A DNA stretch of 64,000 nt, from the IMG/VR virus record IMGVR_UViG_3300037519_000101; one strand, 5' to 3'. The translations under genes and the position numbers were made by a program. Positions 1,609 through 10,042 of this stretch are shown here, in pieces. A model generated the notes under the pieces. The model saw only the letters and a list, made by a program, of their open reading frames with translations, did not search any database and had not been told where the DNA came from. The stretch comes from an uncultured virus (IMG/VR IMGVR_UViG_3300037519_000101). Its lineage: Duplodnaviria > Heunggongvirae > Uroviricota > Caudoviricetes. Within the stretch, counting starts at the first letter, position 1; every line of letters starts with the position of its first letter.

Positions 1609-1671
1609 TCTTATTAGACTACTCTGCATAAGGGTAGTCTATTTCTAATCTATAATCTAAACTAAACTACC

Positions 1672-1860
1672 ATGAAAAAAGTAACAGAATACGGTACATA
1701 TGTATTAAACAGTACTGAAGGTTCATTAGAAAATGAATCAGAACATGCAGAATTACTACAGCATTTATTAAACAATGATAATGTAGAATTTTGTTCAGTA
1801 TCAAAATTGATTGATGGTCAAATTATTACTGAAGTCATCATTGATAAAAACAGCAGGTGA
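1672..1860 (+). CDS. Small hypothetical early protein
   Basis: ATG after an A-rich leader, co-oriented with neighbours. Confidence 0.65.
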   Translation: MKKVTEYGTYVLNSTEGSLENESEHAELLQHLLNNDNVEFCSVSKLIDGQIITEVIIDKNSR

Positions 1861-1868
1861 AAGTCCTG

Positions 1869-1996
1869 CAGTAATGCACCATAACTCACTTCCCAAGGGT
1901 GAGCAGTTGTAATAGGCTCAAGACTTTTTAGTCTGTAAGTAGTGGAAACAGTTAGGTTCAAATCCTACATATTACAACTGAGTGCAGAGGGATATT
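1869..1996 (+). ncRNA. Twister-ribozyme-like structured RNA with a long P5 insertion
   Basis: UAA-UGCA-CC ... CUCAC-UUCCCAAGG-GUGAG ... 11-bp stem ... UGCA-GA-GGG follows the twister element order; P1 is weak. Confidence 0.6.
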
Positions 1997-2029
1997 AATC
2001 TAAATATTAATCTCAAAAATAATCTCAAA

Positions 2030-2788
2030 ATGAAAATTCACTTAAATTCAAGACAAGGTATGTATACTGTAACTTCTTACAATGATACATATATCTGGTT
2101 AGTCACTAGTAAGCTACCAGAATTTACTGTTCCATGTACTGACTTCAAGTCATTTGCTGGTTCAGGATATAACCATGATGTTACAACAGCTGAGTCAGAT
2201 AGATTCTTGTCAGTTGTTAATCCTAGTATGTTTCAGCATCAACAAAAGATGACTGAAAGTATTATGGAAGCTGTCAAAGCTTTATCTATGCAACCAATGA
2301 AACATGCTAATAACAATGAGCCTGATGAAGCTGATAACATCCAGTATGAAAACTGGTATTATCAGAAAACAGAGGAGTTTGATAGATATAAAGACAAGAT
2401 ACGCAAGACTGCATCTGAAGTATATAAACAGAAGTTAGACTTTAGTAATTTAGAAATTACTAAAGGTATCAAGTTTATCATACAGAAAAACAGAGATGAT
2501 AACTCTTATAGATTTTGTTTTGACCCTTATAGTTTTGTGGATAATTTCCACAGTGCTATTAGTGATGTCTTCCGTGAAATTGGTTGGAATACTATCAATG
2601 GTGGTTGGATTAAAGTTATAGAACATAATGTTGTTCTGTATGCTCAGTCTGGTGACTATGGTGTATATGATGATTCTATTGCTATAGAAGCAGCATCTAA
2701 ATTGTTCCCAAATCATAAGATTTTTTCTCATGCTGGAAGACAGTGGGATGCTGAACTAACTGAAAAGTATGATGATTTACCTTTCTGA
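2030..2788 (+). CDS. Early protein with a C-terminal Janus/Ocnus (PHPT1)-like domain and YDDLPF tail
   Basis: Start moved from GTG 1982 (inside the RNA structure) to in-frame ATG 2030; motifs FHSAI, GGWI, LYAQSGDYG, KLFP. Confidence 0.6.
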   Translation: MKIHLNSRQGMYTVTSYNDTYIWLVTSKLPEFTVPCTDFKSFAGSGYNHDVTTAESDRFLSVVNPSMFQHQQKMTESIMEAVKALSMQPMKHANNNEPDEADNIQYENWYYQKTEEFDRYKDKIRKTASEVYKQKLDFSNLEITKGIKFIIQKNRDDNSYRFCFDPYSFVDNFHSAISDVFREIGWNTINGGWIKVIEHNVVLYAQSGDYGVYDDSIAIEAASKLFPNHKIFSHAGRQWDAELTEKYDDLPF

Positions 2789-9844: not shown

Positions 9845-9962
9845 AGTCAGGTAGCTCAGTGGTAGAGCAAGTGGTCAGTGTTGAAAGAATAAGGAGTCAT
9901 GACCTGAAGGTATCAAAGTAAATCTGGCCGCTAGGTCATTGGTTCAAATCCAATCTTGACTA
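9845..9962 (+). ncRNA. tRNA-like RNA with the anticodon loop replaced by a 45-nt insert
   Basis: Acceptor AGTCAGG/CTTGACT, D arm GCTC-AGTGGTA-GAGC, variable AGGTC, T arm ATTGG-TTCAAAT-CCAAT, 9-bp anticodon stem; no assignable anticodon and no encoded CCA. Confidence 0.8.
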
Positions 9963-10042
9963 CACGGGAGTGAATAAGTAGCTCTAAGCCTTGCGGATTA
10001 CAACAGGGTATAGCAGGTGGAATTCCTGCATTTTTAAAAAAT

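What the first reader, a model, noticed from the sequence alone, without database searches (positions are those of the whole stretch)
1869..1996. Twister-like self-cleaving ribozyme between early genes
Seen: U-AA (1872-1874), P2 UGCA/UGCA, CC, P4 CUCAC/GUGAG with loop UUCCCAAGG, then GA-GGG (1987-1991). This allows both twister pseudoknots: CCC/GGG, and CC/GG in place of the usual GC/GC. Established: twister cuts between U and A of the UAA and needs the G after P2, which is present. Deviations are a weak P1 and an L4 one nt longer than I recall as typical. Inference: it processes the early polycistronic mRNA just upstream of the 2030 gene.
Basis: partly seen in the sequence, partly recalled or inferred. 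Interest (0 to 1): 0.75.

Follow-up and report, generated by a model that had tools for sequence, protein, structure and literature searches.

The report
Uncatalogued twister-type ribozyme in phage
This 125-base gap between two phage genes folds like the self-cutting twister ribozyme and belongs to a large, highly conserved phage RNA family that the standard RNA catalogue misses; actual self-cutting has not been shown.

Summary

Base-pair changes across relatives support P1, P2, P4 and P5. They also support all three pairs of the L4 CCC : 3' GGG pseudoknot, which is twister's T1. Eight pairing-compatible states were seen.

The twister active-site bases are in place and nearly invariant: U1872/A1873, A1874, A1895, G1987 and A1988.

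It differs from catalogued twisters in four ways:
- No Rfam twister or twister-sister model detects it, even in compact ~65-nt relatives.
- The L2 "GC" that forms T2 is "CC".
- P5 is always present, forming a three-way junction, and its interior differs in almost every phage.
- This copy has almost no P1.

Verdict: a real structured RNA. It is most likely (~0.7) a self-cleaving twister variant cutting between U1872 and A1873. Cleavage and its role in mRNA processing are untested.

This scan reached the same reading earlier on other genomes.

The parts
1853..1869 (+). Upstream hairpin GCAGG-UGAAAGU-CCUGC, ending 3 nt before the predicted cut. It holds the stop codon of ORF 1672-1860. It sits where P0 or a protective hairpin would sit.
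   Evidence: The same motif recurs at 10013-10029 and directly upstream of the element in L054 and L058. A stable hairpin ends within 8 nt of the site in 83 of 198 upstream contexts, against 28 of 198 control windows.
1866..1871 (+). 5' strand of P1, nearly unpaired in this copy
   Evidence: In the family the two inner P1 pairs form in 54 and 55 of 65 sequences (permutation means 42.8 and 29.9; 0 of 5000 permutations reach this). The window has 0 contiguous pairs.
1872..1873 (+). Predicted scissile step U1872 / A1873
   Evidence: Position by homology to the twister J1-2 step (review passages). U in 98 of 113 and A in 108 of 113 aligned family members. Cleavage not tested.
1874..1874 (+). A1874, placed to form the sheared A-G pair with G1987 that extends P2 in twisters
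   Evidence: A in 109 of 113. The structural role is inferred.
1875..1879 (+). P2 5' strand UGCAC, pairing with 1982-1986
   Evidence: All five pairs show changes on both sides and 99.5% of cells are paired. The pair C1879:G1982 reads CG 104, UA 5, UG 2, other 1.
1880..1884 (+). Junction strand C-A-UAA. C1880 and A1881 are conserved and the rest varies. C1880 may pair with G1897.
   Evidence: C in 107 of 113 and A in 106 of 113. The pair with G1897 never breaks but never covaries.
1885..1903 (+). P4 (CUCAC/GUGAG) with loop L4, UUCCCAAGG
   Evidence: All five P4 pairs change on both sides. Loop positions are near-invariant.
1892..1894 (+). L4 CCC, the 5' half of pseudoknot T1
   Evidence: Pairs with G1991, G1990 and G1989. 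Compensated states seen: UCC:GGA, GCC:GGC, CAC:GUG, CUC:GAG, CCA:UGG, CCG:CGG, CCU:AGG.
1904..1980 (+). P5: conserved 10-bp base (CAGUUGUAAU/AUUACAACUG) carrying a variable interior. Here the interior has a small hairpin and a T-loop-like arm, UAGG-UUCAAAU-CCUA.
   Evidence: 9 of 10 base pairs change on both sides. The fold has z = -2.9. The interior is shared only with L081. 96 elements fall into 79 unrelated interior clusters.
1982..1986 (+). P2 3' strand GUGCA
1987..1991 (+). G1987 (candidate catalytic guanine), A1988, and GGG 1989-1991 (3' half of T1)
   Evidence: G in 110 of 113, A in 112 of 113, GGG in 111, 111 and 108 of 113. Covariation with L4 as listed above.
1992..1997 (+). 3' strand of P1, weak here
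1870..2002 (+). 133-nt block absent from a relative
   Evidence: One contig in run X1 joins 1869 directly to 2003 (table 5). Whether that form is DNA or RNA cannot be told.
1672..1860 (+). Upstream ORF, 62 aa, no family match
2030..2788 (+). Downstream ORF, 252 aa, no family match. Relatives exist in 8 viral contigs.

Best explanation
Window 1866-1997 (+ strand) encodes a member of a large phage family of twister-type self-cleaving ribozymes with a non-standard build. The RNA folds into P1 (vestigial here), P2 (5 bp), P4 with the loop UUCCCAAGG, and an obligatory P5 arm that makes a P2/P4/P5 three-way junction. The loop CCC (1892-1894) docks onto GGG (1989-1991) as pseudoknot T1. That brings A1895/A1988, A1874/G1987 and the U1872-A1873 step together as in twister. 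Cleavage would then run by attack of the U1872 2'-OH, with G1987 and A1873 as general base and acid. The upstream fragment would end in a 2',3'-cyclic phosphate 3 nt after hairpin 1853-1869. The downstream RNA would start with a 5'-OH at A1873 and carry the ribozyme, its P5 arm and the 2030 gene. Shown: the sequence, the family, the fold by covariation, and the conservation of the active-site bases. Inferred: catalysis, the cut site, and any effect on mRNA stability or translation.
For: Sequence is as described. Family: at least 120 viral contigs share the probe, and 50 of 50 whole records searched hold 1-3 clustered copies. Across 113 aligned members 90.2% of cells pair against 82.6% in shuffles, and 26 of 30 pairs change on both sides (0 of 500 shuffles reach this; slid controls 25-52% paired). 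P1 is supported by permutation: 0 of 5000 for the two inner pairs. T1 was tested by probes that fixed only the 5' half. Position 1892 variants: 5 of 5 pair with their partner (2 U-A, 1 G-C, 2 U.G). Position 1893 variants: 36 of 37 are compensated (35 A-U, 1 U-A). Position 1894 variants: 70 of 88 A-U, plus 2 U-A, 1 G-C, 1 G.U and 2 U.G. Active-site bases are 87-99% conserved. G.U pairs in P1, P2, P5 and T1 fix the strand. Compact ~65-nt relatives keep the same core. Twister features are taken from review passages. P1 is reported dispensable for twister cleavage. A near-threshold pistol ribozyme lies 1.3 kb from the element in L021, which fits the reported clustering of self-cleaving ribozymes near phage genes.
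Against: No Rfam twister-P1, Twister-P5 or twister-sister match at E<=10 was found in the window, in 15 loci with short P5, or in compact forms. The conserved L2 GC of twister is CC here, and the second pseudoknot has no covariation. One of its two pairs competes with a covarying P2 pair, although the review calls T2 the most critical tertiary contact. The P4 closing pair is not the near-invariant G-C of twisters. L4 is one nucleotide longer. This copy lacks P1. A few family copies lack the candidate catalytic G: L021 and L011. Relatives without any twister core share the same P5 base, so part of the conservation may serve another function. No experiment or read-level data shows cleavage.
Confidence: 0.7

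Rival explanations
1. A conserved structured RNA that keeps a twister-like fold but does not cleave. It would act as a scaffold presenting the variable P5 arm, for example to a phage or host protein, or as a small regulatory RNA.
For: P5 is always present, and its 10-bp base is conserved in sequence, not only in pairing. Relatives with the same P5 base but a plain helix in place of the UAA/GAGGG loop, and a tetraloop or no P4, lie beside twister-type copies: L069, L063, L010, L072, L011, L052. P5 interiors are almost all different: 79 clusters among 96 elements. No Rfam twister hit. Canonical T2 is absent.
Against: Near-invariance of exactly the bases that twister uses for catalysis, including the unpaired U-A-A and G-A, is hard to explain for a passive scaffold. 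Compact forms reduce P5 to a 3-4 bp hairpin yet keep the whole core, so the core is selected on its own.
Confidence: 0.2
2. A DNA-level element, either a miniature mobile insertion or a recombination cassette. Its conservation would reflect recent spread rather than RNA function.
For: A relative lacks precisely 1870-2002. Presence and position upstream of the homologous gene vary among 8 relatives. The P5 base is an inverted repeat flanking highly variable inserts. Copies cluster and sometimes lie in tandem.
Against: Compensatory changes link positions in a pseudoknot up to about 100-250 nt apart, and G.U pairs appear on one strand only. That points to selection on a single-stranded RNA fold. 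Conserved core next to unrelated interiors argues against simple recency. No transposase or target-site duplication was seen. Mobility and RNA function do not exclude each other.
Confidence: 0.07
3. Chance resemblance in an AT-rich spacer.
For: The MFE z-score of the whole stretch is only -1.8. No Rfam hit.
Against: Hundreds of homologues carry covariation.
Confidence: 0.01

Closest known systems
Twister self-cleaving ribozyme, type P1 with optional P5 (Rfam RF03160; features from reviews PMC5408937 and PMC6154101)
   Same: Same order of elements: P1, U-A-A, P2, P4 with its loop, P5, the 3' strand of P2, G-A-GGG, and the 3' strand of P1. Three-pair pseudoknot T1 between L4 and L1. An A next to the CCC and an A next to the GGG for the A-A pair. 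U and A in L4 placed for the U-A trans pair. Two L4 bases left over after that pair. An A-G juxtaposition at the base of P2. A conserved G after P2. An upstream hairpin where P0 would be.
   Different: Not detected by RF03160 or RF02684. L2 reads CC, not the conserved GC, and T2 is unsupported. P2 has a fifth, covarying pair at its junction end. The P4 closing pair is variable, not G-C. L4 is one nucleotide longer. P3 is absent. P5 is obligatory (reported in about 1% of twisters) and can reach about 190 nt.
Twister-sister ribozyme, three-way-junction form (RF02681; PMC5660989 passages)
   Same: Overall layout: P1, L1, P2, then a junction with P4 followed by P5. The P4 loop zips up with a U-A trans pair and two extruded bases. 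In the three-way form the second long-range contact is a single G-C pair with a junction C. The possible G1897:C1880 contact would resemble this.
   Different: Twister-sister cleaves a C-A step on the 3' strand of L1 and has no three-pair Watson-Crick pseudoknot. Here L1 and L4 are of the twister type and the pseudoknot covaries. No RF02681 match.
Other small self-cleaving ribozymes near phage genes (hammerhead, pistol, hatchet)
   Same: Intergenic position in phage DNA, clustering with other ribozymes, and unknown biological role. A near-threshold pistol lies in L021.
   Different: Unrelated folds.

Membership tests
Twister ribozyme | [quoted passage not shown] | tested here: met
   P2 4 of 4 pairs and P4 5 of 5 pairs change on both sides. 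P1 is short but significant. The window copy itself lacks P1.
Twister ribozyme | Scissile step: a less conserved U followed by a highly conserved A in J1-2, adjoining P1 | tested here: met
   U in 98 of 113 and A in 108 of 113. The position was tested at sequence level only.
Twister ribozyme | Pseudoknot T1: three Watson-Crick pairs between L4 and L1, plus an A-A pair | tested here: met
   All three pairs show compensated changes. A1895 and A1988 are each present in 112 of 113.
Twister ribozyme | Conserved GC dinucleotide in L2 | tested here: not met
   The family has C-C or U-C at this place.
Twister ribozyme | Pseudoknot T2: two L4 bases pair with L2 | tested here: inconclusive
   C1879:G1898 and C1880:G1897 can pair in 98.6% of cells, but with one-sided changes only. 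The L364 G-to-A change is uncompensated. No variant at the G1897 position was found. C1879 covaries with G1982 instead.
Twister ribozyme | P2 of four pairs extended by a sheared A-G next to T1 | tested here: met
   A1874 and G1987 flank a 4-bp UGCA/UGCA. The extra pair lies at the far, junction end of P2.
Twister ribozyme | P4 closed by an essentially invariant G-C pair, followed by a U-A trans pair | tested here: not met
   The closing pair reads C-G 103, A-U 4, U-A 2, U.G 1. The U and A for the trans pair are present in 112 of 113.
Twister ribozyme | Match to an Rfam twister covariance model at its gathering score | tested here: not met
   No match even at E<=10. In some searches the first-look filter often passed no candidate, so the full model was not always scored.
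Twister ribozyme | Mg2+-dependent site-specific self-cleavage | not testable with these tools
   Only assembled contigs of RNA libraries were available.
Twister-sister ribozyme | C-A cleavage step on the 3' strand of L1, no Watson-Crick pseudoknot, RF02681 match | tested here: not met
   L1 is UAA/GAGGG, the pseudoknot covaries, and there is no RF02681 match.

The most novel reading that the evidence does not exclude
The family is a structural link between the twister and twister-sister classes. It has a twister active site and T1, set on the three-way-junction chassis of twister-sister, where the junction plus at most one G-C contact replaces T2. Phages use this chassis, and a non-catalytic sister frame with the same P5 base, to carry and release a swappable library of small hairpin RNAs, the P5 interiors. 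The ribozyme would thus be a processing cassette for cargo RNAs, not merely an mRNA cutter.
Probability: 0.2. Interest if true: 0.8.

Novelty: new variant of a known kind. Interest (0 to 1): 0.6.

Why it matters
If these RNAs cleave, twister ribozymes would gain a large, environmentally abundant subclass found in phages of about 100 kb in lake, river and wastewater samples. That subclass tolerates loss of the canonical second pseudoknot and carries arms of up to about 190 nt.

This bears on three open matters:
- which tertiary contacts twister catalysis really needs;
- how twister and twister-sister are related;
- what self-cleaving ribozymes do in phages, which is a long-standing question.

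The compact ~65-nt natural forms and the many natural compensatory variants make the family easy to test at the bench. The result also shows a blind spot in the Rfam models.

Tried and rejected
- **Rfam scans.** Gathering threshold on the whole window and E<=10 scans on 1500-2400, 15 loci, L356 and 7 compact loci gave only noise. Per-family searches with RF03160, RF02681 and RF02684 gave nothing.
- **ARAGORN** found no tRNA in the window. The P5 arm is not a tRNA by Rfam either.
- **blastn against GenBank phages:** no match. The window's own assembly is not held, and the nearest record lacks the region.
- **Better-specified probes for the last two L4 bases** gave 1 family member of 8 hits and 0 of 1.
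- **RNA libraries.** All 24 runs are kept as contigs with small shares. Laying four of them shows relatives' pieces and one contig without the element, but no information on transcript ends, strand or cleavage. Parts without cover mean nothing.
Natural compact relatives were used instead.
- **Promoter and terminator scan** of 1300-2400: promoter-like sites were no more frequent than in shuffles. It found a terminator-like hairpin at 1615-1641 (+).
- **Literature.** Searches for a description of this phage variant found none. The 'crass' hits were Neurospora crassa, plus one remark on hatchet.

Full report
**Observation.**
- U1872-A1873-A1874;
- UGCA 1875-1878 pairing with UGCA 1983-1986;
- C1879-C1880;
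- CUCAC 1885-1889 pairing with GUGAG 1899-1903, around the loop UUCCCAAGG 1890-1898;
- G1987-A1988-G1989-G1990-G1991.

A 77-nt hairpin (1904-1980) sits between P4 and the 3' strand of P2. Its base is CAGUUGUAAU/AUUACAACUG. The element lies in a 169-nt spacer between two same-strand ORFs, 1672-1860 and 2030-2788. Neither ORF matches Pfam or PHROGs. A hairpin at 1853-1869 ends 3 nt before U1872. P1 is nearly absent in this copy.

**Catalogue searches.** Rfam 15 gives no twister, twister-sister or other ribozyme match:
- whole window at gathering score;
- 1500-2400 at E<=10;
- 15 related loci with P5 of 41-58 nt;
- natural compact relatives with P5 reduced to 11-16 nt.

Per-family searches of 10 viral records also found nothing at E<=10. 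These used RF03160 (twister-P1, gathering score 67.2 bits), RF02684 (Twister-P5) and RF02681 (twister-sister). In those per-family searches the first-look filter often passed no candidate, so they weigh less than a full scoring. ARAGORN finds no tRNA.

**A large family.**
All but one (L079) carry the same flanking core.
- 97 distinct complete elements were extracted. The 66 with P5 of 31-100 nt were aligned as A1 and turned into model R1.
- R1 scores the window copy at 107 bits. It finds 110 matches in 81 sources, including diverged second and third copies in the flanks.
- 50 of 50 whole records hold 1-3 copies, always clustered within a few kb.
- The six records rated at least 90% complete are 96-117 kb.
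- The window itself carries DNA polymerase, DnaB-like helicase, primase-like and Sak4-like genes on the + strand, and ORFs of 2407-3273 aa on the - strand.

**Helices.** On 113 aligned members (A2), 90.2% of cells form standard pairs, against 82.6% in shuffles and 25-52% with slid partners. 26 of 30 pairs change on both sides, which 0 of 500 shuffles reach.
- P2: 4 of 4 pairs covary.
- P4: 5 of 5 pairs covary (for example CUCAC/GUGAG, CCUGA/UCAGG, UCAGC/GCUGA, CCUGU/ACAGG).
- P5 base: 9 of 10 pairs covary.
- P1 is short. Its two inner pairs form in 54 and 55 of 65 sequences, against 42.8 and 29.9 expected (0 of 5000 permutations). The mean contiguous length is 2.8 against 1.24. 11 of 65 sequences, including the window, have none.
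- G.U pairs in P1, P2, P5 and T1 fix the + strand as the RNA strand.

**Pseudoknot T1.** I probed public contigs with patterns that fixed only the 5' half and required a non-C at one loop position, then read the 3' half.
- Position 1892: 5 hits, all family members. Partners were U-A twice, G-C once and U.G twice.
- Position 1893: 37 hits. 35 were A with U at the partner, 1 was U with A (L381), and 1 had a decayed 3' half (L398).
- Position 1894, in metagenome contigs: 88 hits.
  - 70 A-U;
  - 2 U-A, one of which also lacks the conserved G;
  - 1 G-C, 1 G.U and 2 U.G;
  - 2 A.G mismatches;
  - 3 decayed 3' halves;
  - 2 with no 3' half within 400 nt;
  - 4 cut by contig ends;
  - 1 chance match.

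Many of these are close relatives, so the counts are sequences, not independent events. Still, eight distinct pairing-compatible states of the three pairs exist, on many different P4 and P1 backgrounds.

The unpaired bases that twister uses are nearly invariant: A1873 in 108, A1874 in 109, A1895 in 112, G1987 in 110 and A1988 in 112 of 113. The base before the cut is U in 98 of 113.

**Where it departs from twister.** The reviews I read in passages describe:
- a conserved GC in L2 pairing with two L4 bases (T2);
- a four-pair P2;
- an essentially invariant G-C pair closing P4;
- P5 in about 1% of twisters.

Here L2 reads CC. The single family member with a changed last loop base (L364, G to A) is uncompensated, and no variant of the preceding G was found.

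C1879 covaries instead with G1982: CG 104, UA 5, UG 2, other 1. In the A-U subfamily, U goes with A and C goes with G, with one exception. So P2 has five pairs, and T2 is at most one G-C contact with the junction C1880.

The P4 closing pair varies, and L4 has one extra U. P5 is present in every member, from a 3-4 bp mini-hairpin in ~65-nt forms to about 190 nt. The core is therefore a P2/P4/P5 three-way junction.

That layout, and a single G-C contact to a junction C, are what passages of PMC5660989 describe for the three-way twister-sister. Twister-sister, however, cuts a C-A step on the other strand of L1 and has no Watson-Crick pseudoknot.

**Context.**
- A stable hairpin ends within 8 nt of the predicted cut in 83 of 198 distinct upstream contexts. 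The figure is 28 of 198 in control windows 100 nt further up, and 14 of 198 in shuffles.
- The window's hairpin motif recurs at 10013-10029 and before the element in L054 and L058.
- P5 interiors are nearly all unrelated: 96 elements fall into 79 clusters. The window shares its interior only with L081.
- Beside twister-type copies lie relatives with the same P5 base but no catalytic core. They have a continuous covarying helix instead of UAA/GAGGG, and a tetraloop hairpin or nothing instead of P4/L4.
- Of 8 viral relatives of the downstream gene, 3 (identical sequence) have a twister-type copy further upstream, 1 has a weak frame-like match, and 4 have none.
- One contig in an RNA library of lake water joins 1869 directly to 2003, so a relative lacks the 133-nt block. 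Whether that form is DNA or RNA cannot be told.

**Expression.** Only assembled contigs of RNA libraries were available. They show that related sequences occur in lake, river and wastewater libraries, but they say nothing about transcript ends or cleavage.

**Interpretation.** The fold is established. The match to twister covers the whole active-site half: J1-2, the A-G pair, T1, the A-A pair, the L4 U-A pair and the conserved G. I therefore rate self-cleavage between U1872 and A1873 at about 0.7.

Loss of P1 in this copy need not prevent cleavage, because P1 is reported dispensable. The likely consequences are inferred, not shown. The upstream RNA would end just after a protective hairpin, and the downstream RNA would begin with a 5'-OH and carry the ribozyme, P5 and the next gene.

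The main rival (0.2) is a non-cleaving scaffold for the P5 arm. A DNA-level cassette (0.07) explains the presence/absence pattern but not the pseudoknot covariation.

**Novelty and limits.** Full-text searches found no description of this phage variant. The original twister and twister-sister papers and their alignments were not read, so earlier inclusion of such sequences cannot be excluded.

This scan's own earlier notes on other genomes reached the same reading. They are not independent evidence. My tests of T1, T2 and P1 were made here.

Noticed in passing
window 9845-9962 (+): Rfam tRNA match (50.3 bits) spread over 118 nt, with about 46 extra nucleotides inside the anticodon loop. ARAGORN does not call it. 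It may be a tRNA-shaped RNA or an intron-bearing tRNA.
   Followed up: partly
window 1853-1869 and 10013-10029 (+); L054, L058: Recurrent hairpin GCAGG-UGNAANU-CCUGC with compensatory stem changes (GUAGG/CCUAC in L054). In three phages it lies directly before the ribozyme, and once it follows the tRNA-like gene.
   Followed up: partly
L069:2531-2680, L069:1994-2217, L069:1637-1761, L063:530-639, L010:371-447, L072:2008-2115, L011:1241-1377, L052:1079-1220: Sister elements with the same P5 base (AGUUGUAAU...AUUACAACU) but no twister core. They have a continuous covarying helix and a tetraloop hairpin or no P4, and are often in tandem with twister-type copies.
   Followed up: partly
L021:158-217 (+): Pistol ribozyme match just under threshold (33.9 bits against a gathering score of 34.5), 1.3 kb upstream of the twister-type element in the same phage contig.
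   Followed up: no
window 1992-2029; L368-L375 upstream of the homologous gene: Conserved repeated leader (..AATCT.AAA.ATAATCTCAAAATG) in front of the 252-aa gene in relatives, whether or not an RNA element is present. It may be a promoter or a translation signal.
   Followed up: no
L036, L116, L094 just 3' of the element: tRNA-like sequences start within about 10-25 nt after the GAGGG in several relatives. This suggests that some copies sit at the head of RNA gene clusters.
   Followed up: no
window 1904-1980: The P5 interior of this copy has a T-loop-like arm, UAGG-UUCAAAU-CCUA, and a small hairpin that covaries with L081 (AGACU/AGUCU against UGCU/AGCA). Only 2 of 96 elements have it.
   Followed up: partly
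L019:1204-1350, L008:2619-2793, L003:2192-2392: Copies that keep L4, the 3' strand of P4, P5 and the 3' half, but have an unrelated 5' part (..AAUCAG..) without UAAUGCACC. They are either decayed or a further variant.
   Followed up: no
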